From Acaryochloris marina MBIC11017 (GTDB lineage Bacteria > Cyanobacteriota > Cyanobacteriia > Thermosynechococcales > Thermosynechococcaceae): 32,000 nucleotides of DNA. How positions within the stretch are numbered: position 1 is the first letter of the stretch; each line of letters starts with the position of its first letter. The stretch is taken from the NCBI RefSeq assembly GCF_000018105.1, contig NC_009925.1, forward strand, positions 1,890,001 through 1,922,000, written 5' to 3'. This document shows positions 12,926 to 30,231 of this stretch, in pieces. The translations under genes were made by a program, and so were the position numbers. A model generated the notes under the pieces. That model ran no database searches. It was not told the DNA's origin and was given only the letters and a program-made list of their open reading frames with translations.

Positions 12926-12930
12926 AGGTC

Positions 12931-13701
12931 CTATATTGATTTGCTTGAGTTGACAAGTGGCCGAGCCACAACTAGATAAACAGCGGAATTTTCTTGACGC
13001 TGTTCAGGGGAATAGGAACGATCTAAACAGCGAATAACCTGTTGCATCAATACAGCAAATACTCGTTTAAAGGGACTTCTTATCTTAGGAATTAAGGCAT
13101 CTTGAATCAGGCAGGCTGAAGCGGCTGCAAATCCCAGTACTCCAGTGATCTCAACGACGTCCCAATGGCAGTCTGTCAACAGCTTGGTGAGACCTGCTCC
13201 AGTCCAGCGCCAATAATCCGTCGGTATAGGATGGTAGGGCCAATAGCCATGGGTAGATAACAGCAAGAGGCCGTTGGCTTTGCAAACTCGATGGGCTTCC
13301 GCTAAGTAAGCAGCGGGAGATTCGACATGTTCCAACACCTGGGTGGAAATCACTAACTCAACACTGTTGTCACCCAGGTCAACACTGCCAGTATCCGGAT
13401 CAATGGCTAAATCAGCTAGAGAGTTACTCGCTAAGTCGGCCCCCAAATAGTTCTGGACCGTTGGGGTGAATAAACTACGATAAGGCATCGAGCCACAGCC
13501 CATATCGATCGCGGTTAAGTCATGATGCTGTTGATGGAGGGGTTGAACATGGTTCGCAATCGTTTGCTCAAGGGCCTGACGAAGCTTTACTAAAATGTAG
13601 TAGCGATCGCTGGTCCAGGATGGGTTGAGACGAGGTTCAACTTGATTGATCGTGTCGAGCGGATGGTCAGTTGAAGTTGGGGTCATATCCAGTCTCTGCA
13701 T
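12931..13701 (-). CDS. Class I SAM-dependent methyltransferase
   Basis: 256-aa ORF with motif I AIDMGCGSMPY, then VELVISTQVLEHV and CKANGLLLLS. Confidence 0.8.
   Translation of the reverse strand: MQRLDMTPTSTDHPLDTINQVEPRLNPSWTSDRYYILVKLRQALEQTIANHVQPLHQQHHDLTAIDMGCGSMPYRSLFTPTVQNYLGADLASNSLADLAIDPDTGSVDLGDNSVELVISTQVLEHVESPAAYLAEAHRVCKANGLLLLSTHGYWPYHPIPTDYWRWTGAGLTKLLTDCHWDVVEITGVLGFAAASACLIQDALIPKIRSPFKRVFAVLMQQVIRCLDRSYSPEQRQENSAVYLVVARPLVNSSKSI
13603..13610. repeat. HIP1 octamer GCGATCGC
   Basis: Exact match read in the sequence. Confidence 0.95.
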
Positions 13702-13706
13702 CTCCT

Positions 13707-15215: not shown

Positions 15216-15249
15216 GGGTTCGGCCTGATGATTCGGTCGACAGACTCAC

Positions 15250-17541
15250 TTAAGCTTTTAGGTAAGCATAATTTTTATGAGTGGGCGTAACGCCATTTGC
15301 CACGAGGCCAATCACATTTAATCTCTTGTGAGCAGAAATTGCTTTGGACAATTCTAATCGGGTGACTTGTTTCATTCGCCCCACCATCACAACACCATCG
15401 CACCCTAAACCGATGGGAATGGTATCGACAACGCCCAAAACTGGCGGACTATCAATCAAAATCAAGTCATAGTTATTTTCAAAAGCTTTAAGCACATCTT
15501 GCATCCGTTCTAAGCTCAGTAGCTTGACCGGATCGGCCGATAGCGGCCCCGCCGTTAGTACATCAATGCTGAGATCAGACGGAGGCAACGTTCCTGGATC
15601 CAGCTCAGACTCATCCCACCGCATATACACCCATTGTGGAGTGGTCTGCAGCTCTGCCAAGGTGACATTCCCATTGAGCAGGGTCGATAGTCCTTGGTGG
15701 TTATTCAAGTTAAACATATAGTGCAAGCTTGGATTCCGCAGATCCGCGTCAATCACAAGGACCCGTTGATCTAAGCGGGCAGCACTAATTGCTAGGCCTA
15801 GGGCCAAGGTCGACTTCCCTTCTCCAGCCCCAGCTGAAGTAATCATCAAGGTTTTGTAAGGATTTTTGGTTTGTAACAGCTGAATGTTGGTATAGATTAA
15901 ATCCAAGGATTCTCGCAGGGGCTGCCATTGAAATAGTTCCGGAGTCGTAAAGGTGGGGCTTTGGGTTTCGGCCACCGGCAGAATGAGCGAGTCACGCAAG
16001 TCAGCGCTTGAAAGTTCAGGAATCGCTCCGAGTAAGGGCAAGGGAAACTGATTGCCCAAATCATCTGAGTTATGGAACTTATCATCCATCGCCTCGCGCA
16101 CAAAGGCCGTGAGGCCCCCTAGAAATAGTCCCACCACTGCGCCCAACATTAAGTTACGACGGGCATTGGGGCTAATTTGCACTCCCAGTTGGGGGGCCTC
16201 GACCACTTGCCAATCAAAGCCACCTCGAGCAATCTCTAATCCCAGCTCTTGCCGAGCTTCTAGCAGCTTTTGCAACGTTCCTCGCCGAGTGGAAACTTCT
16301 GGTTGAAGGCGATTGAACTGGGCCAATAATTCAGGGTATTGCTTTAGTTCAGCTGTTAATTTCGCTTCGGTCTGAGCTAAGCTGCGATCGCGTGCTTGGA
16401 GACTCTGCAAGTTTTTCTGGAGCTCGCTCAACTGCCTAACGAGAGATAAATCATTGTCTCCAAACTGGCCTGCGTTGAGCTGATTTTCACTAGTGGGCAA
16501 CTGGCCCGCATCTCCCCCCAATACACGACCGACTTCCTGCTCTAGGAGGGCCAATTGATCTCGGCGCTGATTGAGTAAGTTAAAAATGACGGGATGATCT
16601 TCTGTCAGAGTCTGACGTTTTTGTGCTAGCTCTAATTCCGTTTGCTGAATTTGATTCAACAGAGACTGATACCGAGTCGATTCACTTAACCGAGCCGAAG
16701 TTCGGGCTTGCTCAGGGGCTAGCTGAATCTGCCGCTGCACACTGGTATAGCTGGCATAGGTTTCCCGATATTGAGCATCTAATGCTTGTCGTTCGGTTTT
16801 GATCCGGTCTAAAGCCGCGGATGCCGTTTGGGCTTGAGTGGCAGGGTCAATCACATTGGTGCCACTGCGAAAAGTCTTGAGAGCCGCCTCTGCTTCCAAA
16901 ACGCTGCGGCGAACCTCTGGCAATTGCTTATCAATAAATGCCAAACCTTTGGATAGACGGAGCTTCTGCTGTTCTAAATTGTAGAGTTGGTAGACCGCTA
17001 AAACCGTTTCTAAAATCTCTTGGGTTTTTTCAGGCTGAGTGCTGATATAAGTGGCTTTTAAGACTTTAGTCGCGACCTTGCCTTTACCTGTACTGTCTGG
17101 AGCATACACAGGACTAAAGGACAAGGATGACCGTAAATCCTCAATGGTGATATTCGGATATTCTGTTTGTAGGCGTTCAACAGCCCTAGACAGTACTTCC
17201 GACCCCGCCAACACCTGCAGTTGCGTTGTGAGATCCACTTGAACGTTTGGATCAGCAAACCGATTCTCCGCGGTCTTCGGCCCTAAACCATTGGGTTTGG
17301 ACTGATAGTTAGACTCCACCAGCAGCTGCATCGTGCTTTGATACAGGGGCTGAGTTTTCAACGTTAAGAATATAGAACCGGCAATGGCACCGGCAAAGGC
17401 ACCTAAAAACCAAAATTTCCGCCGGACTAAGATAGAAAGCAGATGTCCATAACCCCAGTCCTTATCAATGGTTTGGGCAATTAAAGCATCCTGTTGATGA
17501 GTAAGCTTATTAGGGGGTTTATATAAACTGCTTTCAGTCAC
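15250..17541 (-). CDS. Wzc/GumC-type polysaccharide co-polymerase fused to a BY-kinase-like P-loop ATPase domain
   Basis: 763-aa ORF with an N-terminal TM helix (FWFLGAFAGAIAGSIFLTL), a long coiled-coil periplasmic region and a second TM helix (LMLGAVVGLFLGGLTAF). The C-terminal domain has Walker A TSAGAGEGKST, Walker A' VLVIDADLRNPS and Walker B DLILIDSPP. GTG start. Confidence 0.85.
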   Translation of the reverse strand: MTESSLYKPPNKLTHQQDALIAQTIDKDWGYGHLLSILVRRKFWFLGAFAGAIAGSIFLTLKTQPLYQSTMQLLVESNYQSKPNGLGPKTAENRFADPNVQVDLTTQLQVLAGSEVLSRAVERLQTEYPNITIEDLRSSLSFSPVYAPDSTGKGKVATKVLKATYISTQPEKTQEILETVLAVYQLYNLEQQKLRLSKGLAFIDKQLPEVRRSVLEAEAALKTFRSGTNVIDPATQAQTASAALDRIKTERQALDAQYRETYASYTSVQRQIQLAPEQARTSARLSESTRYQSLLNQIQQTELELAQKRQTLTEDHPVIFNLLNQRRDQLALLEQEVGRVLGGDAGQLPTSENQLNAGQFGDNDLSLVRQLSELQKNLQSLQARDRSLAQTEAKLTAELKQYPELLAQFNRLQPEVSTRRGTLQKLLEARQELGLEIARGGFDWQVVEAPQLGVQISPNARRNLMLGAVVGLFLGGLTAFVREAMDDKFHNSDDLGNQFPLPLLGAIPELSSADLRDSLILPVAETQSPTFTTPELFQWQPLRESLDLIYTNIQLLQTKNPYKTLMITSAGAGEGKSTLALGLAISAARLDQRVLVIDADLRNPSLHYMFNLNNHQGLSTLLNGNVTLAELQTTPQWVYMRWDESELDPGTLPPSDLSIDVLTAGPLSADPVKLLSLERMQDVLKAFENNYDLILIDSPPVLGVVDTIPIGLGCDGVVMVGRMKQVTRLELSKAISAHKRLNVIGLVANGVTPTHKNYAYLKA
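16384..16391. repeat. HIP1 octamer GCGATCGC
   Basis: Exact match read in the sequence. Confidence 0.95.
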
Positions 17542-17551
17542 AATCTGTATT

Positions 17552-18679
17552 TCAACTTATAGAAGGAACAAAAGAATTTTGATTAATGGGTTGGGTCGGA
17601 TAAATTTGATTAATAACTTGATGAATTTTTTGAAAAAAGACGGGCTCAGAAAAGTGTGACAGGGCATGGTCACGAATATATTGATAGTCCCATTCGATCT
17701 GTTGAGATCGCACGAGCGCTGCCTGCAAGGATGAGGCAGTTTGTTGATGAAAAAACACACCTGTTTGACCTGGGACTTGGGTATCGATAACACCACCTGC
17801 ACCAAAAGAAACCACAGGTGTTCCACTCGCATTCGCTTCGACGGGAACCAAACCATAATCTTCTAGTGCCGCCACGACCACCGCTTTAGCTTTAGACATC
17901 AAATGACAGCGTTCGGCATCAGAGATATACCCTAGAAACTCGACGTTTGACTTAGCACGTCGTTCCAAATGCTCCCGTTCTGGGCCATCTCCCATAATTT
18001 TTAACGGCCAACCTAACTGATTAAACGCATCAATAATAACGTCAACACGCTTATAGCCCAACAGTCGGGCAGATACCAAGAAAAAATCTTCTTTGTGGTC
18101 TGAAAAAGAGAATTTAGAATTATCAATTGGATAATTAACTACTATCGCTTGTTTACTATAAGTCGACTGGATACGGCGGGCGACTTCGGTAGAGTTAGCA
18201 ATATATAGATCAGGTTCTTGGGCATAGGCAAGATCAGCCTTCCTCATCACCCGAAACATTTTCTCAATAAAAGGGTAGAGATGCTGATAATCCGCATACT
18301 CTCTCAAATAAGTTTGGGTATCCCAAAGAAAACGGGTGATGTTATGACAGAAGCAGATATGTTTGGCATCCGGCCGGGTTCGCACCGCTTTTGCAAAGCT
18401 GGTGCTACTGCTAATGATGAGGTCATATTTCTGTAAATCTAACGCCCTAAAAGCTGGATAATAGAAAGGAGCCAACAACCGAAAATACCGAGTAGCTCCG
18501 GGTAATTTTTGCAGAAGGGTTGTATGGACGAGGCGATCTCCCAACTCTATTGTTTGGTGAGGATCATAGAGGGAAGTGAATATATCTGCACTGGGGAAGT
18601 GACGACACAACAGCTCGAAAACCCGCTCAGCGCCTCCGCGTTGGGTCAGATAGTCATGAACTAGGGCAATCTTCATCAT
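17552..18679 (-). CDS. GT4-family glycosyltransferase
   Basis: 375-aa ORF with MMKIALVHDYLTQRGGAERV and LEDYGLVPVEANASGTPVVSFGAGG. Confidence 0.85.
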   Translation of the reverse strand: MMKIALVHDYLTQRGGAERVFELLCRHFPSADIFTSLYDPHQTIELGDRLVHTTLLQKLPGATRYFRLLAPFYYPAFRALDLQKYDLIISSSTSFAKAVRTRPDAKHICFCHNITRFLWDTQTYLREYADYQHLYPFIEKMFRVMRKADLAYAQEPDLYIANSTEVARRIQSTYSKQAIVVNYPIDNSKFSFSDHKEDFFLVSARLLGYKRVDVIIDAFNQLGWPLKIMGDGPEREHLERRAKSNVEFLGYISDAERCHLMSKAKAVVVAALEDYGLVPVEANASGTPVVSFGAGGVIDTQVPGQTGVFFHQQTASSLQAALVRSQQIEWDYQYIRDHALSHFSEPVFFQKIHQVINQIYPTQPINQNSFVPSIS

Positions 18680-19132: not shown

Positions 19133-20947
19133 TTATCGATAGTTCTGGGCTTGGGTTTCAAACATCGATGCATAGACCCCGTTGAGGTTCATCAACGTAT
19201 GATGATTACCTTCCTCAATCATGTGACCTTGTGACATCACATAGATGTAGTCAGCCATCTTAACCGTTGACAATCGGTGACTAATCAAAATAGCGGACTG
19301 ATCTTGAATGAGCTCTCGGAATTGTTGAAAAACCTCATATTCAGCTTTGGGGTCCATTGCACTGGTTGGCTCATCCAGAACAATCACTTGAGAATCCCTT
19401 AAGAAGGCACGAGCCAGAGCGATTTTTTGCCACTGGCCAATACTGAGTTCTTCTCCTTGATCAAACATCTTACCCAGAACGGTATCGTACCCTTGCGGTA
19501 AAGACTGGATGACTCGATCCGCTCCTGATAGTTGAGCCGCCGATCGAATCCGACGATCATCGGCTGGCCGCTCAATATTGCCTAACTGGATATTATCTCG
19601 GGCTGTGAAATGATATTTAGCATAGTCTTGAAAAATGACGCTGATATGGCTTTTTAGCTCAAGCTTACTAAAGCTTTTGAGATCGATGCCATCAATCGTG
19701 ATACTTCCCTCAGTGGGATCATATAGTCGACAAAGTAGTTTAATGAGTGTCGTTTTTCCAGAGCCATTCTCGCCCACCAAGGCAATAACTTGTCCGGGCT
19801 GGAGCTTGAGTGACACATTGTGAATCGCTTTCCGTTTGGTCGTAGCATATTGAAAGCTAACATTATTGAAAACCACTCCAGTAGCCAACGTTTCTGGGAA
19901 AGGCTGCGGGCGTTCGGGTTCCAAGACTTTGGACTCTATATCTAAAAATTCGTATAGATTCGCGAGGAACAAATTATCCTCGTAAAGCCCCGATAGACTT
20001 CGTAACAACCCCCTCAGACTGTTTTGACCTTTTTGCAACGCTTGATAATAGAGGACTAAGTCTCCCAACTTGAGAACGCCTGCCAACGTTTGCTGGACCA
20101 TATAGATAAAAATGGCAAAGACAAATAACCCTGCAATTACCTGAGCCCCAAAAAAGGCAAAGGATCGTTTAGAAACTATCCCTACTTTTTCCTTATAAAT
20201 AAGTTCTCGTAGCTGGGCATACCGCTGTCTGAAATGCTCTCCTAGGTTGAATAATCGAATCTCTTTGGCGAACAAATCACTGGTTTGTAACCACCCCAAA
20301 TACATTGCCTGCCGTTCTAGCTGAGTCCGACGGCGTTTCCAGTGGTACATTACCCCTGCAAATTTCATCCGCACCAATACAGTTGGAATTGCAGCCACAA
20401 ACAGAATTCCGACAATACCCCAATGCAGGGCCAACAATAATCCCAACATTGCTAGTAATGAAATTGAACTTTGCCCTGCTAAGGCCAACCGATCCAAGAT
20501 GCGGGGAGGCCGATAAGGCGCTTCTTGTTGGGCGCGCTGCAGAGCATCATAATATTGGGCATTTTCGTAATACTCTAAGTCAGCCGAAATCGATTTAGAG
20601 TGGATGATGCCCTGCATATAATCCGTGACTCGCTGAGCATGGGCAATGGTAACTAAATCTGATAGAGAGGCAAAGAGGGTCGTACTAATCGTCAAACAAG
20701 CGGCAACAACCAATAAAGGCACGATATCGTTGAGCGCGGCTGCTCGGTTCGAAAGTGCCAAACTAATCGTCACTTGATCGACAATTAGCTTAGTCATATA
20801 AATAGAAAATAAGGGTAGTATGCCCTGAATGATTACCAAGCCAATGCGTGCCAAAGTCCAGTTAGGACTGCTTTGCCAAACCAGTTTTAAAGCTGGGATG
20901 AAGTGCAAAGGGCGTTTAAATCTTGCTTTGATAAATCCAGTCAGCAT
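19133..20947 (-). CDS. ABC transporter, fused permease/ATPase half-transporter; candidate lasso-peptide exporter (D protein)
   Basis: 604-aa ORF with an N-terminal six-TM-type domain. Walker A GENGSGKTTL, signature LSIGQWQKIALARA, Walker B VIVLDEPTSAMD. It lies directly downstream of the precursor genes on the same strand. Confidence 0.85.
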   Translation of the reverse strand: MLTGFIKARFKRPLHFIPALKLVWQSSPNWTLARIGLVIIQGILPLFSIYMTKLIVDQVTISLALSNRAAALNDIVPLLVVAACLTISTTLFASLSDLVTIAHAQRVTDYMQGIIHSKSISADLEYYENAQYYDALQRAQQEAPYRPPRILDRLALAGQSSISLLAMLGLLLALHWGIVGILFVAAIPTVLVRMKFAGVMYHWKRRRTQLERQAMYLGWLQTSDLFAKEIRLFNLGEHFRQRYAQLRELIYKEKVGIVSKRSFAFFGAQVIAGLFVFAIFIYMVQQTLAGVLKLGDLVLYYQALQKGQNSLRGLLRSLSGLYEDNLFLANLYEFLDIESKVLEPERPQPFPETLATGVVFNNVSFQYATTKRKAIHNVSLKLQPGQVIALVGENGSGKTTLIKLLCRLYDPTEGSITIDGIDLKSFSKLELKSHISVIFQDYAKYHFTARDNIQLGNIERPADDRRIRSAAQLSGADRVIQSLPQGYDTVLGKMFDQGEELSIGQWQKIALARAFLRDSQVIVLDEPTSAMDPKAEYEVFQQFRELIQDQSAILISHRLSTVKMADYIYVMSQGHMIEEGNHHTLMNLNGVYASMFETQAQNYR

Positions 20948-21327: not shown

Positions 21328-21468
21328 CTATGACGTTACATCATCAATATCACCAACGGGAATTGTCCCGAAAGGCACATCTGTAGCATTCAATGACGGT
21401 GAATTCTTAGTCATATCTTCTACGCTGCCGTACACCTTCAATTGGGGTGCACCATAGGTTCTTTTCAT
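21328..21468 (-). CDS. Lasso-peptide precursor A1 (46 aa): MKRTYGAPQLKVYGSVEDMTKNSPSLNATDVPFGTIPVGDIDDVTS
   Basis: Hand translation; below the ORF-track size cut-off. Preceded by AAGGAG. The leader fits YxxPxLxxxGxxxxxTx (Y5,P8,L10,G14,T20). It lies between the cyclase and the ABC exporter. Compared with paralog A2, 36/46 residues are identical, and 17 of the identical residues use different synonymous codons. Confidence 0.85.
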   Translation of the reverse strand: MKRTYGAPQLKVYGSVEDMTKNSPSLNATDVPFGTIPVGDIDDVTS

Positions 21469-21550: not shown

Positions 21551-21588
21551 AATTAGGTGTTTTACCCCCCAGGTCAGCTGTGAAACAA
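21551..21588 (-). promoter_or_regulatory. Conserved box upstream of A1 (sense strand TTGTTTCACAGCTGACCTGGGGGGTAAAACACCTAATT)
   Basis: Identical, apart from a 1-nt T indel, to 21888-21924 upstream of A2, while the surrounding non-coding sequence has diverged. Function unknown; it could be a promoter/operator or a 5' UTR element. Confidence 0.5.
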
Positions 21589-21652
21589 TCCACGCTGGAC
21601 CAGGACGCCCACATTCTAGCAACAATCAAAAATTAGTGACTGGATAAAATGA

Positions 21653-21793
21653 CTAGGATGTAATGTCGTCGATATCTCCAGGAGGAATGGTTCCAAAGGG
21701 CACATCAATGGCATTGATTGATGGCGCATTCTTCGTCATATCTTCTACGCTTCCGTAGGTTCTGAGTTGAGGTGCGTCATAAAATTTTTTCAT
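21653..21793 (-). CDS. Lasso-peptide precursor A2 (46 aa): MKKFYDAPQLRTYGSVEDMTKNAPSINAIDVPFGTIPPGDIDDITS
   Basis: Hand translation. Preceded by AAGGAG. Same leader motif and same architecture as A1, including the C-terminal Ser. Confidence 0.85.
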   Translation of the reverse strand: MKKFYDAPQLRTYGSVEDMTKNAPSINAIDVPFGTIPPGDIDDITS

Positions 21794-21887: not shown

Positions 21888-21924
21888 AATTAGGTGTTTA
21901 CCCCCCAGGTCAGCTGTGAAACAA
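21888..21924 (-). promoter_or_regulatory. Conserved box upstream of A2 (second copy of the 21551-21588 box)
   Basis: See 21551-21588. It contains a CAGCTG palindrome and a G6 run. Confidence 0.5.
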
Positions 21925-22079: not shown

Positions 22080-24050
22080 TTACTGTAGAGTAGATTCGGC
22101 AAAATTGACGCCTAGATTGGCTTGTTGTAGCCAAAGAGTCAAATTAACGGCAATCCAAATCAACAGTGTATCGTTAGCTTCAGCCTCTCCCCTTTGCCAT
22201 CGCTGGACTAACTGAGTGAACTCGTGCATATCAATAAACGTCTCAATGGCATCGGGTGGATGATTGAGAACTTGATGAATTAGGTCCATACCGTACTTTT
22301 CTAGGGTATGGTCAAACGCTGTGCCCAAATTTCCTTTACCGGCACGCCATTGAATTTGAGGAGGAAGAATACCATCCAGTCCACGTCGGATAATTAATCG
22401 AGTCCAACCATTTTGCATCTTTTGTTCTTCTGGTAGAGAAACACAAAATTCCACTAACCGCTTATCCCAAAAGGGAAATCTCAATTCCACTTGGGAGGCA
22501 GCAGCTGTTCGATCCATCACTTCTAGGGTCGAAGAGACTAAGCCAGATGTAACGTCAACGATATGTTCGTGGCGCTGGGAAGGCTGTGCTCCAAAGCGCT
22601 GACGACGCAGGTGTTTATAACGCTGTAGCACGGATGCTCGATCAACAAAGTCTGGGGTGAGGGGGATGGCCCAGGGCCTGGCTGGAGTCACCTCGGACGT
22701 CTTCTGCTGCCCACGGAATTGCCAGCTTTTAACTTTACCTAAAATTTTGGTAATCTTTGTTTTTTTAAGGAGGGGATTGATGCCAAATTTACGGACATAG
22801 GACCGATACAAGGGCCATAAATCGTAACCAAAGCTTTGGCAAAACCCCCTCATCTCGCGCCATAACTTGAGCCACCGTCCTGCCTTGGCCAGAGTACGTA
22901 AATACCCAACACCATGAGATACCGCCTGATCACCATCAAAGCCATCCAATAACACCCTGACCGATTGGCTTTGAGCGATTTGATATAAGGCATGGGTTAA
23001 ATGGGCGTTACAGGCAAATAAGGGTTCGTCTTGGATAGCTAGCATGTGCTGATAATCGGTCCAGGGGCTGAGTTGATCGCCCTGTACATACTGAGGCTCG
23101 ATGGGTCGCTGATGAATCACGGCATTCATAAATTCCTGCTCATCAGATGCCGTAATTTCATTAAACACGGCGGAGAAAGTAGGGAATTTAGCGGTCTCTT
23201 GCGCCTCCTGTCTCAACTGGGCCGTCATACAGGTAATCGAGGAAGAATCAATTCCTCCACTTAACATTGTGCCGATGGAAAATGCACTTCTCAGGCGGCA
23301 GCGCACGGCTTCGGTGAAAATGGATTGAAACTGTTCCGCATAGGCTTGATCGGAGTCCAGCTGAAGTTCAAAGTCAGGATCGAGAGACCAATAGGCTGAG
23401 ATGTCCAAACTGTTTTGGCTTACTGTCATCCGATGAGCAGGAGGAAGACGAACAATCTGCTCATAAAAAGTCATTTCTGCATCAAATAGCATCAGGGTCA
23501 GATAGTCGGCGACCCTGGTTTCATTGAGGGATTTAGGCACTTCCAGCAAATGAAACAGCGCTTTCATTTCGCTGGCAAAGGCAAAGACTTGTTCGGAGGC
23601 ATAGTAAAAGAAGGGCTTGACTCCAAAATGATCGCGGGCGCAAAACAAATGCTGTTGAGTCTCATCCCAAAGGGCAAAGGCAAAATCACCTAAGAAATAT
23701 TCGGGGCATTGTTCGCCCCATTTTTCGTAGGCAGCAAGAATGAGGGCGCTATCGGTAATCACTGCTGAGGGAGACTCTTTCAGACCCAGCTGGGTCATTA
23801 GGTCCACACGGTTATCAATTCGGGCGTCTGCCGTCAAGATTAAAGTTTGGGAAGCGTTGCTAAGGGGTAGCGTTTCAAACCGGGATTCTGGGGTGGTCTG
23901 TAATAAACAATGGCCTAAGCCAACCCTATCTTGACTCCATTCATTGGTTCCATCCGGTCCTCGATGGGATAGAGATTGGACCATTTGGTGCAAATAATCG
24001 CTCCCCTCAGGATGAGGGTGAGGATAGACAAAGCCAGTAATTGCGCTCAT
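22080..24050 (-). CDS. Lasso-peptide cyclase (C protein), asparagine-synthetase B homolog
   Basis: 656-aa ORF. The N-terminus MSAITGF aligns with the AsnB MCGIxG but has Ser where the glutaminase nucleophile Cys is expected. PP-loop ATP-pyrophosphatase motif MLSGGIDSSS. The genomic context is B1/B2/precursors. Confidence 0.85.
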   Translation of the reverse strand: MSAITGFVYPHPHPEGSDYLHQMVQSLSHRGPDGTNEWSQDRVGLGHCLLQTTPESRFETLPLSNASQTLILTADARIDNRVDLMTQLGLKESPSAVITDSALILAAYEKWGEQCPEYFLGDFAFALWDETQQHLFCARDHFGVKPFFYYASEQVFAFASEMKALFHLLEVPKSLNETRVADYLTLMLFDAEMTFYEQIVRLPPAHRMTVSQNSLDISAYWSLDPDFELQLDSDQAYAEQFQSIFTEAVRCRLRSAFSIGTMLSGGIDSSSITCMTAQLRQEAQETAKFPTFSAVFNEITASDEQEFMNAVIHQRPIEPQYVQGDQLSPWTDYQHMLAIQDEPLFACNAHLTHALYQIAQSQSVRVLLDGFDGDQAVSHGVGYLRTLAKAGRWLKLWREMRGFCQSFGYDLWPLYRSYVRKFGINPLLKKTKITKILGKVKSWQFRGQQKTSEVTPARPWAIPLTPDFVDRASVLQRYKHLRRQRFGAQPSQRHEHIVDVTSGLVSSTLEVMDRTAAASQVELRFPFWDKRLVEFCVSLPEEQKMQNGWTRLIIRRGLDGILPPQIQWRAGKGNLGTAFDHTLEKYGMDLIHQVLNHPPDAIETFIDMHEFTQLVQRWQRGEAEANDTLLIWIAVNLTLWLQQANLGVNFAESTLQ

Positions 24051-24070: not shown

Positions 24071-25288
24071 TTAGGAAGTAGAAGTGGGTTCAATCGCTTT
24101 AATCATCAGAAATCCCTCTTGAATCAAGTTTTGAGCTAAGGACAATCGTCCAGCATCGTTAATCAAACCACCAATGTCTTTAACAGCTAGATAGGGATGG
24201 TCAATCAGATCAGTCAGGGAGGTCGCTAGGAAAATAGGAAAGGTTAGACTTTTTTGATAGAAGTTCAAAACGATTTGAGTGGAATCTCTATCAACGGAGA
24301 AGAGAATATTGGGTCTGCGAGCAACGACAGAGTTGAGATTGAGCTGTGGCAGGTAAATCAGATCTTGGAATCGACCTTGGTCTTCTGATTTGCGATCGCA
24401 CAAAAATACCTTATGCTTCCGCTCTACCAGTTCTTCAGTCTTAACATTACTAATTAAGTACTGACTCAGGGTTTGAAACAACTCATAAAAAGCCTGCTGT
24501 TGCTCAGAACTGGAAAAACCGTGGGGAATCGCTTTCCGAAAGGCTGGGTCAGCCTGGGCGATGGTGACCAACTCCTCCAAGAGTTCATAGGCGAAGGTGG
24601 GATATAACCCTAGGGATGCATGCACAGAGGTGGTCTCCTGACTAGCCGCTTGATGGACTACCCCCCGAGGAATATAAAGCAAATCACCAGGCTGAAGCAT
24701 TACCGTTAATTCCGGCTCCGCCAGTTTATGGCGGCCAATACTTTGATCGCGGATGTGAGAGGGGAGTTCAACAGGAGAATGGTAGAGTTTCCATTCCTTT
24801 TCCCCCGTGATTTGGAGAATAAACACATCATGTTCATCGTAATGAGGGGCTAAGCCCTGGGCCTGGGGGGGGGTGATATAGATATTGGTTCGTAGCTTAA
24901 ACTTCAGCTCGCATTCTAGAGCACTGCAAAAATGTCTCAGCTTGGGAATTTTCTTATGAGCCCCATTGATAGTCAAGGTTAAGCCTTGATGCAACAGGCT
25001 ATAGAGCTTGTCGTTATTAATAAAATACTGTTGGGATTTAGAGTGGCGATCACACCAGTCTTCCAGACTGAGCTTATTACCCTGATCCACTAGGCGAAAG
25101 TTATTGTAATCCGCCAACAACGCTTTGTTTTGCAGCAGAAGATCGATGTCCTCTGGCTGTAAAACTGACCCATAAAATGAGGCATCATTCCTTGGCAAAT
25201 AGAGGGTTTTTGTTTCCCAATAGGTCTGGAAAAAATCCTCAATCGTGCAAGGAGAGATTAAACGGGCAAATTGAGACTCAACCTTCAT
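24071..25288 (-). CDS. JmjC/cupin_4-type (ribosomal-oxygenase YcfD/RoxA-like) Fe(II)/2OG oxygenase
   Basis: Facial triad context APHYDEHDVFILQITGEKEWKLY (HxD) and LLYIPRGVVHQA (distal His). The ORF track starts at TTG 25321; the ATG at 25288 (MKVESQ..) is preferred and overlaps the kinase stop by 11 nt. Confidence 0.75.
   Translation of the reverse strand: MKVESQFARLISPCTIEDFFQTYWETKTLYLPRNDASFYGSVLQPEDIDLLLQNKALLADYNNFRLVDQGNKLSLEDWCDRHSKSQQYFINNDKLYSLLHQGLTLTINGAHKKIPKLRHFCSALECELKFKLRTNIYITPPQAQGLAPHYDEHDVFILQITGEKEWKLYHSPVELPSHIRDQSIGRHKLAEPELTVMLQPGDLLYIPRGVVHQAASQETTSVHASLGLYPTFAYELLEELVTIAQADPAFRKAIPHGFSSSEQQQAFYELFQTLSQYLISNVKTEELVERKHKVFLCDRKSEDQGRFQDLIYLPQLNLNSVVARRPNILFSVDRDSTQIVLNFYQKSLTFPIFLATSLTDLIDHPYLAVKDIGGLINDAGRLSLAQNLIQEGFLMIKAIEPTSTS
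24392..24399. repeat. HIP1 octamer GCGATCGC
   Basis: Exact match read in the sequence, inside the lasso cluster. Confidence 0.95.
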
Positions 25289-26183
25289 GGGCCAGGATGT
25301 GATTTTCAACGAGGGTAGCAATGTCCGGTAGTAAGTCGAGGGAGGCTGGCCGTAAGAGACGCAAAAGTGGCACTTGTTGAGCCAGGAGCATCAGTTGCTT
25401 AAAATGGTTGGCTCCTCGCTCCTGCAATAAAGTTTGCTCAAAGCGGGTGACATAGGAGTTTTGCATCAAATGTTGAATAATCTCCTGGGGCGGTAACGGC
25501 TTAATGGCGACTTCCTCCCCCTGTCCCAGCACAAAAATATATCTCAAGGGCAGAATGTCAGACATAAAGCCAGAAGAGAGTTGATGATTGCGCTTTTCTA
25601 AGCGGGCCCCTAGTCGTGGTAAATCCTCGGGCTGCTTGCCAATACAGGTGACCGCATCGGGCCACAGCTTGATTTGTGGAAAGGCAGGCTGTACCTGAAT
25701 TTGATGGCGTTGGACCTCTAGGGCTACCACATCATCCGCAATCAAGCTATGGCCACGATCATGCAAAGTCGCTGCCATCGTGGATTTGCCCCATCGCTTT
25801 TGACCAATAAAGGCCACCGCTTCTCCTTCCAACGCCACGGCACTGGCATGGAGGACCAAAAATCCGCGTTGATGCAGCACAACTCCCATGACCGCACCCA
25901 GAATAAAGAGTCGGAGACGATCCTCATCGAGATCAATCTCTAGATCAATCAGGACATCCTGGCCTTCCTGAATCAAAAACGTACCGACTCCTTGCCAATA
26001 TAAATACATTCCTGAATCGTTATTTTGATAGCAATGCAGGGTGTCTCCCGTCTGCAAAGGACTATCGGTAATGGCATCAAAATGAATCCAGACATCCGCA
26101 TCCGTTGCCAGGGTGGGAATCAGTTCTGGCAGTTTAATTTCAGACTGAAGGGTCAAGCCATAGGCTGAATAAAAGTGGGACAT
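25278..26183 (-). CDS. HPr-kinase/phosphorylase-like P-loop kinase (lasso precursor Ser kinase candidate)
   Basis: 301-aa ORF. P-loop FIGQKRWGKSTMAATL preceded by LHASAVALEGEAVAF and followed by LIADDVV, the arrangement of the HprK C-terminal domain. Sits in the lasso-cluster context. Confidence 0.75.
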   Translation of the reverse strand: MSHFYSAYGLTLQSEIKLPELIPTLATDADVWIHFDAITDSPLQTGDTLHCYQNNDSGMYLYWQGVGTFLIQEGQDVLIDLEIDLDEDRLRLFILGAVMGVVLHQRGFLVLHASAVALEGEAVAFIGQKRWGKSTMAATLHDRGHSLIADDVVALEVQRHQIQVQPAFPQIKLWPDAVTCIGKQPEDLPRLGARLEKRNHQLSSGFMSDILPLRYIFVLGQGEEVAIKPLPPQEIIQHLMQNSYVTRFEQTLLQERGANHFKQLMLLAQQVPLLRLLRPASLDLLPDIATLVENHILAHEG

Positions 26184-26312: not shown

Positions 26313-27236
26313 TTACCGTTGGTCCCGAGGTAGTAATTTCTTGAGTTTGGATCTTAGTTTTTTGAGAAAGGGTTGAGTGGGTTGAGGCTCGTTTGCCGTA
26401 AACAGTTTATAAATTAATGCTTCGAACAGGGGATTTGGCGCCATAGAGTCCGGATGAATGATGGCATCTAAATTCAAATTAAAGGTTGGCAACTCATTTA
26501 AACCTTGGTTCCCTTGGGTATGACTGCCTTGAGTGCCAATATTGGAAATCAGATTGACCTTCGGCACAACGGTGAGACCGTCCTGAGCGAGACAAGAATA
26601 AAACCATGGAATATCCCAAACCTGTTGGTTCTGATAGGCCCAGTCAAATAATTGGGTCACCCAATCCGTGAGGGCCTGTTGCTCAAAAAATTGGGGTTGG
26701 GTTTGCTTGAACTGAGGCCACCCCGTCATCGTGAGGTCGTTGCCTTGCCACGCTCTGCGCCAAGAGGCCCATCCCCAAGACACAAAAAATTTAGAGAAGA
26801 CATAGGTCTGGGGAATAGAAAGGGTATCTCGCAAAAAATTACTCCCCGAGATGGTCTTGACTTGGAATTGATGACGGTACTGAGCTAACATCCCTTGGCA
26901 AAACGGGAAAAAGCTGGGATGGGGAAGACAGTCATCTTCTAAAATGATCGCTTCTTCCACCTGAGAGAACACCCAGTCCAACCCCTGGACATTACAAGAC
27001 CGTCCCCCCAGGTTCGATTCAGCAAAACGGGTGAACACCTCGCACTCCCAATCCACTTGATCAACAATCGCCCTTGCTTGCTGGCATAAATCATCATCCT
27101 CGGGCACATCAGCTCTCGGGCCATCCGCAACGATAAACAAGGTTGACGGTTTGACTTGGGCAATCGCTGCAAATACCTGATTCGAATATTGCGGACGATT
27201 GAAAATATGAAGGGCAACGGGAGTGGAAAAAGGCAT
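26313..27236 (-). CDS. GT-A-fold glycosyltransferase (GNT-I / 'HlpA-like' type)
   Basis: 307-aa ORF with VALHIFNRPQY...LFIVADGPR, AIILEDDCLPHPSFFPF (an EDD motif in DxD position) and WGWASWRRAW. From memory this pattern matches bacterial GNT-I-like glycosyltransferases. No search was run. Confidence 0.55.
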   Translation of the reverse strand: MPFSTPVALHIFNRPQYSNQVFAAIAQVKPSTLFIVADGPRADVPEDDDLCQQARAIVDQVDWECEVFTRFAESNLGGRSCNVQGLDWVFSQVEEAIILEDDCLPHPSFFPFCQGMLAQYRHQFQVKTISGSNFLRDTLSIPQTYVFSKFFVSWGWASWRRAWQGNDLTMTGWPQFKQTQPQFFEQQALTDWVTQLFDWAYQNQQVWDIPWFYSCLAQDGLTVVPKVNLISNIGTQGSHTQGNQGLNELPTFNLNLDAIIHPDSMAPNPLFEALIYKLFTANEPQPTQPFLKKLRSKLKKLLPRDQR

Positions 27237-27250
27237 GGGAGAAGCAAAAT

Positions 27251-27859
27251 TCAGACAAACCAGCTGACAATGGTGAATCGTTCACCATGGGTGACGGGTT
27301 TAACTTCATGCCAGAGATCGGAACGGAAAGCGATCAGCTGGCCTTGTTCCGGTTCTAAGGGAAAGCCATAGTTTTGACCACGAGCATCATTGAGTAACCC
27401 ATAGAGCGCTAAGGCTCCCCCCCCAAAGGTCTGAGGACTAGGCTCAGCGGACATGCCGTTGAGAAAAATAATTAAAGACACTAATCGATTTTTTTCAAAC
27501 TTGGAGCCCGGTAGGCTCGGATCGATCACATCTCGATGCAGGCCAAAAAAGTCGCCCACTTGATAGCGGTAGCAGGAGGGAGGTTCAAGGGCATGGAGTT
27601 GAACCTCAAAATGAGTTTCTAATCGCGGTTTGATGGCAATTAAGCGCTCACGAATCCCCTTGATCGTGGTTGGGCTGATTTGCAACTGGCCTGTTTTCCG
27701 TCGACTATCGTCGGTCACAGCCTCCCCGTATCGGGTGAGACGAGCAGGCTCACAGGGGCAGGTCTGTGCTTCCGTGAGGTAGGACTCACAGAATTGTGGA
27801 TCTAAGAAGCCAGGGTCTACAAATACCCCCAAGCGTTCAAAAAAAGCAGCGCTAGGCAT
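27251..27859 (-). CDS. Prolyl-4-hydroxylase-like Fe(II)/2OG oxygenase (2OG-FeII_Oxy_3 type)
   Basis: 202-aa ORF with YQVGDFFGLHRDV (HxD), SLIIFLN...GGALAL, LIAFRSDLWHEVKPV (distal His) and GERFTIVSWF (2OG-binding Arg). Confidence 0.75.
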   Translation of the reverse strand: MPSAAFFERLGVFVDPGFLDPQFCESYLTEAQTCPCEPARLTRYGEAVTDDSRRKTGQLQISPTTIKGIRERLIAIKPRLETHFEVQLHALEPPSCYRYQVGDFFGLHRDVIDPSLPGSKFEKNRLVSLIIFLNGMSAEPSPQTFGGGALALYGLLNDARGQNYGFPLEPEQGQLIAFRSDLWHEVKPVTHGERFTIVSWFV

Positions 27860-27929: not shown

Positions 27930-28388
27930 TTAGATCTTGGACTCAAACGATGGCATCGGCGTAAAGCGAGATAAGTCCTTCACAAAACCCATGATCACTT
28001 GCCCTTGTAGTTCAACCCAGGCATGGGCTTCAAGGGAATGATCCTCTGCTTTCGCGACCCCAATTTTTAGCTCGGGTTCATAGCCTCGTCGGCAAATTAA
28101 GACTTGCGTAACGAGGGCTCGGGCTAAACATTTCACGTGTCCTGGCATAAATCGGCTACTAGTGTTCACTGCCCAGATCACTTTTCCGACAGTTCTACGA
28201 CTAATCTTTCTGAGGGTAGGGGTTTGATAGTAGGCAGGGGGGTTGTGAAAATTGGCCAGCCATTTCTGCAGGATTTTGAAAGGCAGCAACCACAATCCCA
28301 ATCGAACCAAACCCAACAAAACGTAGGTTTTGATCAAGAGAGTGCGATCGCAACTTTGCAACCGCAAAAATTTAAGCAGTGGCGACAT
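27930..28388 (-). CDS. Lasso-peptide leader peptidase B2 (transglutaminase-like Cys protease)
   Basis: Motifs HVKCLARALVTQVLICRRGYEPELKIGV (catalytic Cys) and LEAHAWVELQGQVI (His). The ATG at 28388 is preferred over TTG at 28400. It overlaps the B1 stop by 17 nt. Confidence 0.85.
   Translation of the reverse strand: MSPLLKFLRLQSCDRTLLIKTYVLLGLVRLGLWLLPFKILQKWLANFHNPPAYYQTPTLRKISRRTVGKVIWAVNTSSRFMPGHVKCLARALVTQVLICRRGYEPELKIGVAKAEDHSLEAHAWVELQGQVIMGFVKDLSRFTPMPSFESKI
28344..28351. repeat. HIP1 octamer GCGATCGC
   Basis: Exact match read in the sequence, inside the lasso cluster. Confidence 0.95.
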
Positions 28389-28677
28389 CTTTGATCTCAA
28401 TCAAATCTGATTCAACCAGTTCATTCAGCAACCTGAGGACATCCTGTTCACACTGGTCCGACTCAACTTCGTACTGGTCCAGAATTTGGTCGCAGATGTC
28501 TTTAACCGATCGAGGTTGCTGAAGTAAATTCCAAATACTTGCACCCACTTCATTCAAACCGAAGTACATTCCTGTCTTCAGGTTGAGAATTACTGATTCC
28601 CCTGCTAAGTCAGATGAGACTTGCTCTGGGGTCGCAACAACCGTTGTATTCGTTGAAATAGTGGTAGTCAAACTCAT
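28372..28677 (-). CDS. Lasso-peptide B1 protein (PqqD-like RiPP recognition element)
   Basis: 101-aa ORF with LAGESVILNLKTGMYFGLNEVGASIWNLL...ICDQILDQYEV....CEQDVLRLLNELVESDLI, the PqqD-family pattern. Confidence 0.85.
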   Translation of the reverse strand: MSLTTTISTNTTVVATPEQVSSDLAGESVILNLKTGMYFGLNEVGASIWNLLQQPRSVKDICDQILDQYEVESDQCEQDVLRLLNELVESDLIEIKDVATA

Positions 28678-30092: not shown

Positions 30093-30231
30093 GGATTGAT
30101 TACCTTTTTAGAATACAATTCCCAGATTTTTCACAAACAGTCAGCAAAATGTTACGTAGCAGTCTGACAGAGAATCCTAGTTGGAAAACAATATCGATAG
30201 TCTCAGTCATCGACGAAGGACAGAATCACGT

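What the first reader, a model, noticed from the sequence alone, without database searches (positions are those of the whole stretch)
21328..21405. Predicted core begins with Asn and closes a 9-residue ring on Asp9
If cleavage follows the Thr(-2)-Lys(-1) rule, the cores are NSPSLNATDVPFGTIPVGDIDDVTS and NAPSINAIDVPFGTIPPGDIDDITS. The only acidic residue within the allowed positions 7-9 is Asp9, so the macrolactam would be Asn1 alpha-amine to Asp9, a 9-membered ring as in paeninodin (Ala1-Asp9). Characterised lasso peptides mostly start with Gly, Ala, Ser or Cys. Asn at position 1 would be unusual and would test cyclase substrate tolerance. The tail is Pro/Gly-rich, with an acidic DIDD patch before the terminal Thr-Ser.
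Basis: inference. Interest (0 to 1): 0.65.

Follow-up and report, generated by a model that had tools for sequence, protein, structure and literature searches.

The report
Cyanobacterial lasso peptides starting with asparagine
Two small tandem genes in an Acaryochloris-type cyanobacterial gene cluster almost certainly encode lasso-peptide precursors whose knotted ring would be closed between an unusual first residue (asparagine) and aspartate 9, a plausible but untested variation on a well-known peptide class.

Summary
Two 46-codon genes on the minus strand (21328-21468 and 21653-21793) encode MKRTYGAPQLKVYGSVEDMTK|NSPSLNATDVPFGTIPVGDIDDVTS and MKKFYDAPQLRTYGSVEDMTK|NAPSINAIDVPFGTIPPGDIDDITS. 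They lie between a lasso cyclase and an ABC exporter, in a complete split-B lasso cluster.

The leaders fit the lasso motif YxxPxLx3Gx5Tx exactly, with Tyr-17, Pro-14, Leu-12 and Thr-2. That puts the cut after Lys21 and makes Asn core residue 1. Asp9 is the only acidic residue at positions 7-9.

In every relative found (cyclases 64-100% identical), Asn1 and Asp9 never change, while ring positions 2-8 and leader position -1 (Lys or Asn) vary. Among 123 unique cores with this leader type, the first acidic residue at position 6 or later falls at 9 in 88, at 8 in 25 and at 10 in only one. This supports the Thr(-2) register.

The Asn1-Asp9 nine-residue ring is therefore the best reading (about 0.75). 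The main rival is a cut one residue later, giving a Ser/Ala1-Asp8 ring.

Asn1 was not found in any characterised lasso peptide in the literature searched. It does recur in three other predicted lineages, so it is uncommon rather than startling.

The more unusual feature is the tailoring set: an HPr-type kinase (with a C-terminal Ser on the peptide), a JmjC hydroxylase, a second 2OG oxygenase and a GT13-like glycosyltransferase.

The parts
21328..21468 (-). Precursor gene A1 (46 aa). Leader codons 1-21 are at 21406-21468, core codons 22-46 at 21331-21405, and the stop codon at 21328-21330. Thr(-2) is 21409-21411, Asn1 is 21403-21405 and Asp9 is 21379-21381.
   Evidence: ORF list; sequence; NF033528 lasso_cyano at 33.0 bits, E 4e-8; the exact protein occurs on at least 23 public contigs with the same gene order.
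21653..21793 (-). Precursor gene A2 (46 aa), a tandem paralogue of A1. The core is at 21656-21730, Asn1 at 21728-21730 and Asp9 at 21704-21706.
   Evidence: ORF list; NF033528 at 32.0 bits, E 9e-8; tandem duplication unit aligned; 17 synonymous and 10 non-synonymous codon differences from A1.
22080..24050 (-). Lasso cyclase C (656 aa, asparagine-synthase-like). It is predicted to activate the Asp9 side chain and join it to the Asn1 alpha-amine.
   Evidence: NF033535 lass_lactam_cya at 905.7 bits against a cut-off of 525; Pfam Asn_synthase and GATase_7; 95% identical to the cyclase annotated in Acaryochloris sp. CCMEE 5410.
28372..28677 (-). B1, a PqqD-type RiPP recognition element that binds the YxxPxL leader motif.
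   Evidence: NF033536 lasso_PqqD_Bac at 87.5 bits against a cut-off of 80; Pfam PqqD E 4.5e-23.
27930..28400 (-). B2, a transglutaminase-like cysteine leader peptidase. Public gene calls start at the internal ATG, giving 152 aa (27930-28388).
   Evidence: NF033537 lasso_biosyn_B2 at 118.6 bits against a cut-off of 33; Pfam Transglut_core3 E 1e-31; Cys (VKCLARAL) and His (EAHAW) are visible.
25278..26183 (-). HPr-kinase-like peptide kinase. It is predicted to phosphorylate the C-terminal Ser25 of the linear precursor.
   Evidence: Pfam Hpr_kinase_C E 5e-7 (29.8 bits, below the gathering score of 33.3) and TIGR04352 E 1e-8; the H...GKS...DD motif is present, matching the His-Lys-Asp-Asp motif of lasso kinases; homologues lie next to the cyclase in most related loci.
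24071..25321 (-). JmjC / ribosomal-oxygenase-like Fe(II)/2OG hydroxylase (405-416 aa depending on the start codon). It is a candidate peptide hydroxylase; its target residue is unknown.
   Evidence: Pfam JmjC_2 E 6.7e-32; PDB sequence hits to MINA53/NO66 (E 2e-31) and to YxbC, a 'putative asparaginyl hydroxylase'; HxD...H is present; conserved in every close relative.
27251..27859 (-). Second Fe(II)/2OG oxygenase (202 aa, 2OG-FeII_Oxy_3, prolyl-hydroxylase-like family). It is an accessory tailoring gene, present in only some relatives.
   Evidence: Pfam E 2.3e-15; PKHD-type hydroxylase hit in the PDB; HRD...H...R motif; absent from L089 and L090.
26313..27236 (-). GT-A-fold glycosyltransferase related to family GT13 (307 aa, no Pfam or NCBIfam family). 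It is an accessory tailoring gene.
   Evidence: AlphaFold2 model with pLDDT 91.8; best Foldseek PDB matches are POMGnT1 5ggi and GnT-I 1fo8 (E 1e-10); invariant E100-D101-D102; a profile hit to the same PDB proteins at the EDD region (E 0.2-0.3).
19133..20947 (-). ABC exporter D (604 aa, fused permease and ATPase).
   Evidence: Pfam ABC_tran E 1e-33; MsbA-like NCBIfam hits; conserved position downstream of the precursors in all relatives.
21564..21585 (-). Conserved element TTTCACAGCTGACCTGGGGGGT upstream of A1. An identical copy lies upstream of A2 at 21900-21921. It belongs to the duplicated promoter/5'-UTR unit.
   Evidence: Two exact copies against 0 expected; conserved in related loci, together with a TGCTAnAAT-like extended -10 box.

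Best explanation
The two ORFs are lasso-peptide precursors of an Acaryochloris-type cyanobacterium. The proposed pathway is as follows.

1. B1 binds the leader through Tyr(-17)/Pro(-14)/Leu(-12).
2. While the peptide is still linear, the HPr-type kinase phosphorylates the C-terminal Ser25. The JmjC and 2OG oxygenases, and the GT13-like transferase, probably add further groups at this stage.
3. B2 cuts after Lys(-1), guided by Thr(-2), and exposes the alpha-amine of Asn1.
4. The cyclase activates the Asp9 side-chain carboxylate and joins it to that amine, closing a nine-residue macrolactam around the 16-residue acidic tail.
5. The ABC transporter exports the product.

What the sequence shows: the genes, the motifs, the cut-site register, and the invariance of Asn1 and Asp9. 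What is inferred by homology: the cut itself, the Asn1-Asp9 linkage, the threaded topology, the phosphorylation, and every other modification.
For: A complete lasso gene set passes NCBIfam cut-offs: C 905.7/525, B1 87.5/80, B2 118.6/33.

The leader fits YxxPxLx3Gx5Tx exactly, with YxxPxL at -17 to -12, as reported for lasso leaders.

In 26 diverse precursors, Tyr, Pro, Gly, Thr and the acceptor Asp are the only invariant columns. The window's Asn aligns to core residue 1.

Nine distinct close relatives all read N-x-x-x-x-x-x-x-D-V-P, with positions 2-8 variable. One has leader ...MTN|N, so position -1 varies while Asn1 does not.

Codon comparison shows ring positions 2-8 changing mostly non-synonymously, while the Asn1 and Asp9 codons stay fixed.

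Among 123 unique cores with this leader, the first acidic residue at position 6 or later is at 9 in 88, at 8 in 25, at 7 in one and at 10 in one. This sharp limit at the largest known ring size is what the Thr(-2) register predicts.

Other lineages also have Asn1 under the same rule.

The kinase motif and the C-terminal Ser match the paeninodin, pseudomycoidin and SyanA systems.
Against: There is no experimental evidence for this peptide or for any cyanobacterial lasso peptide in the searched literature.

The residue after Asn is Ser, Ala or Gly in all relatives, which are the classic first residues. A cut one residue later would therefore also give a legal 8-residue ring.

The tail has no Arg, Lys, His, Tyr or Trp. 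In some relatives (L089, L090) it has no aromatic residue at all. A nine-residue ring may therefore not hold the tail without added groups; unmodified pseudomycoidin, also a nine-residue ring, was recovered unthreaded.

A2 scores 32.0 bits, just under the 33-bit cut-off of NF033528, and both matches cover only the leader.

A few predicted precursors of the wider clade (L012, L013, L018, L034) do not place an acidic residue at 7-9 under the Thr(-2) rule.
Confidence: 0.75

Rival explanations
1. The leader peptidase cuts one residue later, after Asn22, putting Thr at -3. The mature peptides would then start with Ser (A1) or Ala (A2) and close an eight-residue ring on the same aspartate, which becomes Asp8.
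For: The residue after Asn is Ser, Ala or Gly in every relative. These are the classic lasso N-termini, and an 8-residue ring is legal. One in-silico survey of rumen lasso clusters placed Thr at -3 by requiring Gly1. An eight-residue ring would need less bulky plugs than a nine-residue ring.
Against: All experimentally studied lasso precursors have the recognition residue at -2 (Thr, or Ile in BsfA) and YxxPxL at -17 to -12. The window fits that register only if Asn is residue 1. Position -1 varies (Lys or Asn) while the Asn never does, which is the reverse of what is expected if Asn were the tolerant -1 residue. Under a Thr(-3) register, none of the 123 cores in the set would have a nine-residue ring, although the characterised clade members paeninodin and pseudomycoidin are Ala1-Asp9. 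In the Pleurocapsa relative (NNGTSFVD...), Asn would be first under either register.
Confidence: 0.12
2. The macrolactam Asn1-Asp9 forms, but the product is not a stable threaded lasso on its own. It would be a branched-cyclic peptide, or a lasso held only by bulky C-terminal or tail modifications (phosphate, sugar, hydroxyl groups).
For: The tail lacks classic plug residues. Relatives L089 and L090 have no aromatic residue at all. Wild-type pseudomycoidin (Ala1-Asp9, same clade) was isolated unthreaded, and its authors proposed that the phospho-hexose groups act as a lock. The cluster encodes four tailoring enzymes.
Against: Topology cannot be read from sequence. Phe12, Ile15, Ile20 and the phosphorylated Ser could be enough. 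This reading modifies rather than replaces the Asn1-Asp9 assignment.
Confidence: 0.3
3. The ORFs are not matured at all. They would be chance or decayed ORFs, or belong to a silent cluster, and no Asn1 peptide exists in nature.
For: No product has been reported. A2 is just under the NCBIfam cut-off. Public annotation calls the closest homologue 'hypothetical protein'.
Against: Both ORFs are conserved with many synonymous changes. They keep a conserved ribosome-binding site and promoter-like element. They co-occur with intact B1, B2, C and D genes on at least 23 independent assemblies and in diverged relatives.
Confidence: 0.03

Closest known systems
Paeninodin (Paenibacillus dendritiformis C454; padeCAB1B2D + padeK)
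   Same: Split B1/B2 genes, an HPr-kinase homologue in the cluster, a nine-residue ring closed on Asp9, an acidic Pro-rich tail, and a C-terminal Ser that the kinase phosphorylates on the linear precursor.
   Different: Paeninodin starts with Ala, not Asn. It comes from Bacillota, not Cyanobacteria. Its tail contains His and Tyr as potential plugs. Its cluster has no hydroxylases and no glycosyltransferase. The window's core shows no sequence similarity beyond the general pattern.
Pseudomycoidin (Bacillus pseudomycoides; psmK + psmN)
   Same: Ala1-Asp9 ring, C-terminal Ser (poly)phosphorylated and then decorated with one or two hexoses. The bulky C-terminal groups were proposed to lock a tail that otherwise slips out. 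The authors also noted a cyanobacterial (Stanieria) kinase-type cluster with a recognisable glycosyltransferase.
   Different: In pseudomycoidin the sugar depends on a nucleotidyltransferase-like protein (PsmN), not on a GT13-like GT-A enzyme. No oxygenases are present. The first residue is Ala.
SyanA / Mesorhizobium-type polyphosphorylated lasso peptides of Proteobacteria
   Same: The same leader architecture aligns without gaps from Thr(-2) to the acceptor Asp9. A kinase lies next to the cyclase. The core carries a C-terminal Ser and a ...D-x-x-[FY]-P-x-x-T-P... tail.
   Different: These start with Gly (GGxxS...D). They have no hydroxylases or GT, and a different gene order (A upstream of B1-B2-C in Mesorhizobium).
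Canucin A / CanE (Streptomyces canus)
   Same: This is a precedent for an Fe(II)/2OG hydroxylase that tailors a linear lasso precursor, by beta-hydroxylation of the C-terminal Asp.
   Different: CanE is a single enzyme acting on a C-terminal Asp. Here there are two unrelated oxygenases, one JmjC/ROX-like and one P4H-like, with unknown targets.
Fusilassin / cellulassin / halolassin (Thermobifida)
   Same: These show that lasso cyclases can use large, non-Gly first residues (Trp1, Tyr1), and that FusC tolerates substitutions at position 1.
   Different: They are actinobacterial, with Glu acceptors, no kinase and hydrophobic cores. None of the natural members has Asn1.

Membership tests
Lasso peptides (RiPP class) | Precursor with a leader carrying YxxPxL and a Thr at the penultimate leader position | tested here: met
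   Y5, P8, L10, G14 and T20 of both ORFs fit YxxPxLx3Gx5Tx exactly. These columns are invariant or nearly invariant in 26 diverse precursors. The register of -17 to -12 comes from PMC10368454.
Lasso peptides (RiPP class) | Asp or Glu at core position 7, 8 or 9 to accept the N-terminal amine | tested here: met
   Asp9 is the only acidic residue at positions 7-9 in both cores. It is invariant in all relatives.
Lasso peptides (RiPP class) | Co-located lasso cyclase, leader peptidase and RiPP recognition element | tested here: met
   NF033535 905.7/525, NF033537 118.6/33 and NF033536 87.5/80 bits. All lie on the same strand within 7 kb of the precursors.
Lasso peptides (RiPP class) | Isopeptide bond between residue 1 and the acceptor, with the tail threaded through the ring | not testable with these tools
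   This needs MS/MS, NMR, or protease and heat assays on the product.
NCBIfam NF033528 'lasso_cyano' precursor subfamily | Whole-protein score at or above the curated cut-off (33 bits) | tested here: inconclusive
   A1 scores 33.0 bits, exactly at the cut-off. A2 scores 32.0 bits, just below it. Both align only to model positions 1-21 of 35, which is the leader.
Kinase-associated (paeninodin-type) phosphorylated lasso peptides | HPr-kinase homologue with the His-Lys-Asp-Asp catalytic motif encoded in the cluster | tested here: met
   Pfam Hpr_kinase_C E 5e-7, although its 29.8 bits is below the gathering score of 33.3. The motif HASAV...GQKRWGKST...ADD is present. Homologues lie next to the cyclase in most related loci.
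Kinase-associated (paeninodin-type) phosphorylated lasso peptides | Serine as the last residue of the core | tested here: met
   Both cores, and all close relatives, end in ...D-[IV]-T-S. Of the 123 clade cores, 67 end in Ser.
Kinase-associated (paeninodin-type) phosphorylated lasso peptides | Phosphate actually installed on the C-terminal Ser | not testable with these tools
   This needs MS of the product or an in vitro kinase assay. BsfK shows that some lasso kinases target Ser3 instead.
GT13-like GT-A glycosyltransferases (for the 307-aa ORF) | GT-A Rossmann-like fold with an acidic DxD-type (EDD) metal/nucleotide-sugar motif | tested here: met
   The model has pLDDT 91.8. The top PDB fold matches are POMGnT1 and GnT-I, with E 1e-10 and TM about 0.5. 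E100-D101-D102 is invariant in 32 homologues. Sequence-level membership of GT13 is not established: the profile E-value is only 0.2-0.3.

The most novel reading that the evidence does not exclude
These would be the first characterised cyanobacterial lasso peptides and the first with an N-terminal asparagine. They would also be the most heavily tailored lasso peptides known. On this reading, a nine-residue Asn1-Asp9 ring surrounds a tail without classical plug residues, and the thread is held or functionalised by a cascade of four cluster-encoded enzymes: C-terminal Ser phosphorylation, two Fe(II)/2OG hydroxylations (JmjC-type and prolyl-hydroxylase-like) and a GT13-like glycosylation. The sugar might go onto a hydroxylated residue, onto the phosphate, or onto ring Asn6, which is present only where the glycosyltransferase gene is present.
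Probability: 0.25. Interest if true: 0.7.

Novelty: new variant of a known kind. Interest (0 to 1): 0.45.

Why it matters
If confirmed, Asn1 would extend the known substrate range of natural lasso cyclases and leader peptidases to a polar, amide-bearing first residue. It would also supply a naturally co-evolved cyclase for engineering.

More broadly, the cluster is a compact test bed with natural variants that have or lack each accessory gene. It can address how phosphorylation, hydroxylation and glycosylation are combined on a lasso scaffold, and whether such groups can replace bulky plug residues in holding the thread.

It would also open an uncharacterised phylum for this peptide class.

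The basic chemistry (a lasso macrolactam, with kinase tailoring) is already well established, so the finding refines existing knowledge rather than overturning it.

Tried and rejected
- A genome-collection scan with the single cyclase sequence found nothing.
- A degenerate DNA pattern for YG[ST]VE[DN]MT in metagenome contigs gave 37 stretches. Only one (L116, the L087 type) is a real precursor; the other 36 are chance matches.
- The profile search for precursors was limited by the word index to 132 candidates. The residue-1 frequencies are therefore indicative only and are dominated by Mesorhizobium and Rhodothermales families.
- The RODEO paper, the paeninodin JBC paper and the JACS version of the cell-free paper are not held. 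The supplements of LassoESM and LassoPred are not held. A global frequency of Asn1 among the roughly 4,500 predicted cores could therefore not be obtained.
- The conserved sequence upstream of both precursors was tested as a possible structured RNA and rejected. There was no Rfam match, and the fold was no better than shuffled sequence (z = -0.12).
- A sigma-70/terminator consensus scan of the precursor region found nothing above shuffled expectation on the coding strand.
- I considered Asp19, Asp21 or Asp22 as acceptors and rejected them. The rings would exceed nine residues, and only Asp9 aligns with the invariant acceptor column.
- I considered Ser3-type phosphorylation, as in BsfK. This is unlikely, because positions 2-4 are not conserved Ser/Thr in relatives while the C-terminal Thr-Ser is.
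- I tried to infer hydroxylase and glycosyltransferase target residues from presence/absence across relatives. Only a weak association emerged, between Asn6 and the glycosyltransferase, and it is confounded by phylogeny.
Full report
**Observation**

Reading the window and listing ORFs confirms two 46-codon genes on the minus strand:
- A1 at 21328-21468: MKRTYGAPQLKVYGSVEDMTKNSPSLNATDVPFGTIPVGDIDDVTS
- A2 at 21653-21793: MKKFYDAPQLRTYGSVEDMTKNAPSINAIDVPFGTIPPGDIDDITS

The intervals in the finding (21328-21405 and 21653-21730) are the 25 core codons plus the stop codon. If the leader ends at Lys21, both cores start with Asn. Asp9 is the only acidic residue at positions 7-9, and both cores end in DIDD[VI]TS.

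**Context**

All neighbouring genes are on the same strand. Pfam and NCBIfam identify them as follows:

| Gene | Coordinates | Evidence |
|---|---|---|
| B1, PqqD-type recognition element | 28372-28677 | NF033536 87.5 bits, cut-off 80 |
| B2 leader peptidase | 27930-28400 | NF033537 118.6 bits, cut-off 33 |
| 2OG-Fe(II) oxygenase | 27251-27859 | Pfam 2OG-FeII_Oxy_3 |
| 307-aa protein, no family | 26313-27236 | see "The wider system" |
| HPr-kinase-like protein | 25278-26183 | Pfam Hpr_kinase_C |
| JmjC oxygenase | 24071-25321 | Pfam JmjC_2 |
| Lasso cyclase | 22080-24050 | NF033535 905.7 bits, cut-off 525 |
| Precursors A2 and A1 | 21653-21793, 21328-21468 | NF033528 |
| ABC exporter | 19133-20947 | Pfam ABC_tran |

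Both precursors hit the NCBIfam cyanobacterial lasso precursor model NF033528, but only over residues 1-21, the leader. A1 scores 33.0 bits and A2 32.0 bits, against a cut-off of 33.

The exact A1 protein is found on at least 23 public assemblies with the same gene order. The nearest named relatives are from Acaryochloris: a precursor in Acaryochloris sp. 'Moss Beach' and a cyclase 95% identical in strain CCMEE 5410.

**Are the ORFs real genes?**

- A1 and A2 are a tandem duplication that includes about 170 nt of upstream sequence.
- Both keep an AAGGAG ribosome-binding site that is invariant in related loci.
- Between the two copies, 17 codons differ synonymously and 10 non-synonymously. Across more distant relatives, the interior of the ring changes mostly non-synonymously, while the Asn1 and Asp9 codons stay fixed.
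- This is the usual signature of a RiPP precursor: a conserved leader, conserved cross-linking residues and a hypervariable core.

**Where is the leader cut?**

Four lines of evidence place the cut after Lys21.

1. The leaders fit the lasso motif YxxPxLx3Gx5Tx exactly (Y5, P8, L10, G14, T20). PMC10368454 reports that YxxPxL spans -17 to -12, and that a Thr at -2 is found in all studied precursors except the Ile(-2) case it describes. The window matches that register only if Asn is core residue 1.

2. I collected cyclase homologues, fetched 80 genomic loci and scanned them for this leader type.
   - In an alignment of 26 diverse precursors, the only invariant columns are Tyr, Pro, Gly, Thr and the acceptor Asp.
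   - The window's sequences align without gaps to the Sphingobium/Mesorhizobium GGxxSxxxD type. That type belongs to the kinase-associated family studied experimentally as SyanA.
   - In this alignment Asn falls on Gly1 and Asp9 on Asp9.

3. In 123 unique cores with the strict leader motif, the first acidic residue at position 6 or later is at 9 in 88, at 8 in 25, at 7 in one and at 10 in one.
   - A distribution that stops at nine, the largest ring known, is what the Thr(-2) register predicts.
   - Under a Thr(-3) register no member would have a nine-residue ring. Yet the characterised clade members paeninodin and pseudomycoidin are Ala1-Asp9.
   - The set is not phylogenetically independent, so this is supporting evidence rather than decisive evidence.

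4. In all close relatives, with cyclases 64-100% identical, the pattern is N-x-x-x-x-x-x-x-D-V-P-x-G.
   - Positions 2-8 vary.
   - One relative (L090) has leader ...DMTN|N, so the residue after Thr varies (Lys or Asn) while the next residue is always Asn.
   - That fits a tolerant -1 position followed by a constrained residue 1, not the reverse.

**The main rival**

The residue after Asn is always Ser, Ala or Gly. A cut one residue later would therefore give a textbook first residue and a legal eight-residue ring. One in-silico survey adopted such a Thr(-3) register by requiring Gly1. I cannot exclude this without mass spectrometry and give it about 0.12. Acceptors other than Asp9 would need rings of 19 or more residues, and they do not align with the invariant acceptor column, so I reject them.

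**How unusual is Asn1?**

- A whole-word search for 'Asn1' together with 'lasso' found no paper describing such a peptide.
- No paper in the library links lasso peptides to Acaryochloris beyond a genome-mining list.
- No paper uses the phrase 'cyanobacterial lasso peptide'.
- Papers on cyanobacterial lasso clusters are purely genomic.

So Asn1 is unprecedented among characterised lasso peptides as far as I can see.

It is less exotic among predictions:
- The cell-free biosynthesis study reports 4,485 unique predicted cores. Every nine-ring position except the acceptor has high entropy. Natural Trp1 and Tyr1 peptides exist, and FusC tolerates changes at position 1.
- In my own set, residue 1 is Gly (most often), then Thr, Ala, Asn, Phe, Gln, Val, Ser, His and Asp.
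- Asn1 recurs independently in a Pleurocapsa MAG (NNGTSFVDVPQGT..., where Asn would be first under either register), an Allocoleopsis MAG (NVNRAGGGD...) and a Heliobacteriaceae MAG.
- A Scytonematopsis relative of the same DVPFGT...ITS core type starts with Gln.

**The wider system**

The cyclase clade is the kinase-associated one: a homologue of the window's kinase lies beside the cyclase in most of the 80 loci. The window's kinase carries the H...GKS...DD residues that define lasso kinases, and the peptides end in Ser. C-terminal Ser phosphorylation on the linear precursor, as in paeninodin, ThcoA, SyanA and pseudomycoidin, is therefore the most likely added modification.

The three other accessory genes have no precedent in characterised lasso clusters that I could find:
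- **JmjC protein.** It resembles the ribosomal oxygenases MINA53 and NO66 (E 2e-31) and YxbC, a 'putative asparaginyl hydroxylase'. It has the HxD...H motif and is present in every close relative.
- **202-aa oxygenase.** It belongs to the prolyl-hydroxylase-like 2OG-FeII_Oxy_3 family.
- **307-aa protein.** It has no Pfam or NCBIfam family but belongs to a very large family.
  - It models confidently (pLDDT 91.8) as a GT-A glycosyltransferase.
  - Its closest structures are POMGnT1 and GnT-I of family GT13 (E 1e-10).
  - It has an invariant EDD motif.

Natural variants exist with different accessory sets:

| Loci | Accessory genes |
|---|---|
| L089, L090 | kinase + JmjC only |
| L088 | kinase + JmjC + 2OG oxygenase |
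| Window, L087, L091, L093 | kinase + JmjC + 2OG oxygenase + glycosyltransferase |
| L092 (contig starts inside the glycosyltransferase gene, so the 2OG gene could not be checked) | kinase + JmjC + glycosyltransferase |

Ring residue 6 is Asn wherever the glycosyltransferase is present and the precursor is known. It is Ser where the transferase is absent. This is a weak association and is confounded by phylogeny.

**Topology**

The tail contains no Arg, Lys, His, Tyr or Trp, and L089 and L090 have no aromatic residue at all. Unmodified pseudomycoidin, which has the same ring size, was recovered unthreaded. Its authors proposed that the phospho-hexose groups act as a lock, and they noted a cyanobacterial kinase cluster with a recognisable glycosyltransferase. 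It is therefore plausible that the modifications here help to hold the thread. This is inference only.

**Verdict**

It is a new variant of a well-known kind, for three reasons: an unprecedented but not implausible first residue, a phylum with no characterised member, and an unusual tailoring set. Interest is moderate (0.45). The Asn1 point alone would mildly interest a specialist, and the tailoring cascade is the more promising lead. Predicted masses for a decisive MS test are given.

Noticed in passing
window 26313-27236 (-): A 307-aa ORF with no Pfam or NCBIfam family is a confidently modelled GT-A glycosyltransferase. Its nearest structures are GT13 enzymes (POMGnT1, GnT-I), and it has an invariant EDD motif. 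It belongs to a very large unannotated family (9,976 cluster representatives at E<1e-3), many fused into proteins of 600-2,000 aa.
   Followed up: yes
window 24071-25321 (-) and 27251-27859 (-): Two unrelated Fe(II)/2OG oxygenases lie inside the lasso cluster, one JmjC/ribosomal-oxygenase-like and one prolyl-hydroxylase-like. The JmjC gene is kept in all close relatives and also occurs next to kinase-type lasso clusters in Scytonematopsis (L008) and Nostoc sp. CHAB 5844 (L032). Their target residues are unknown.
   Followed up: partly
window cores; L087, L088, L089, L090, L092, L093: Ring residue 6 is Asn in every core from a cluster that has the GT13-like gene (window, L087, L092, L093). It is Ser in clusters that lack it (L088, L089, L090). 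There are few lineages and they are phylogenetically confounded, but this is a testable hint about the glycosylation site.
   Followed up: partly
window 21564-21585 and 21900-21921 (-); -10-like box near 21613-21618 (-): The tandem duplication of the precursor includes about 170 nt of upstream sequence. It carries an identical 22-nt element (TTTCACAGCTGACCTGGGGGGT) and a TGCTAnAAT-like extended -10 box, which is also conserved upstream of precursors in diverged relatives. There is no Rfam match and no above-background RNA fold, so it is probably a promoter or operator rather than a structured RNA.
   Followed up: partly
L087 and L093 (5100-13400): In this relative the tailoring genes, cyclase, precursor and exporter are present, but no B1 or B2 gene lies within 5 kb upstream. 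Instead a PmbA/TldD protease pair sits about 2.5 kb upstream. This recalls the B-less Stanieria cluster and the B-independent pseudomycoidin synthesis reported in PMC6993621.
   Followed up: no
window 30181-31134 (+) and 31412-31924 (-): A 317-aa ORF with no family match lies on the opposite strand between the M20 peptidase gene and an ADP-ribosylglycohydrolase gene. It is present in the loci identical to the window (L001, L003) but absent from otherwise syntenic loci L004 and L005, where the two flanking genes are adjacent. This suggests a recent insertion.
   Followed up: no
window 28866-30092 (-): An M20-family peptidase gene lies immediately upstream of B1 in the window and in L088, L090 and L091, but not in L087 or L089. 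It may be a conserved neighbour or an accessory peptidase of the cluster.
   Followed up: no
window 1050-18679 (-): Downstream of the ABC exporter lies a long same-strand exopolysaccharide-type gene set: GT4 glycosyltransferases, a Wzz/tyrosine-kinase-like protein, a flippase and methyltransferases. The same set follows the lasso cluster in all Acaryochloris-type loci. It is probably just the conserved chromosomal neighbourhood.
   Followed up: partly
L012, L013, L018, L034 (precursor-like ORFs next to cyclase homologues): A few precursors with a perfect YxxPxLx3Gx5Tx leader have no Asp/Glu at core positions 7-9. For example, the Rokubacteria core DQNKKLGLSD... has its first acceptor at position 10, and the Rubrobacter core has none before position 33. 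They may use a different cut register or ring size, or be decayed.
   Followed up: no
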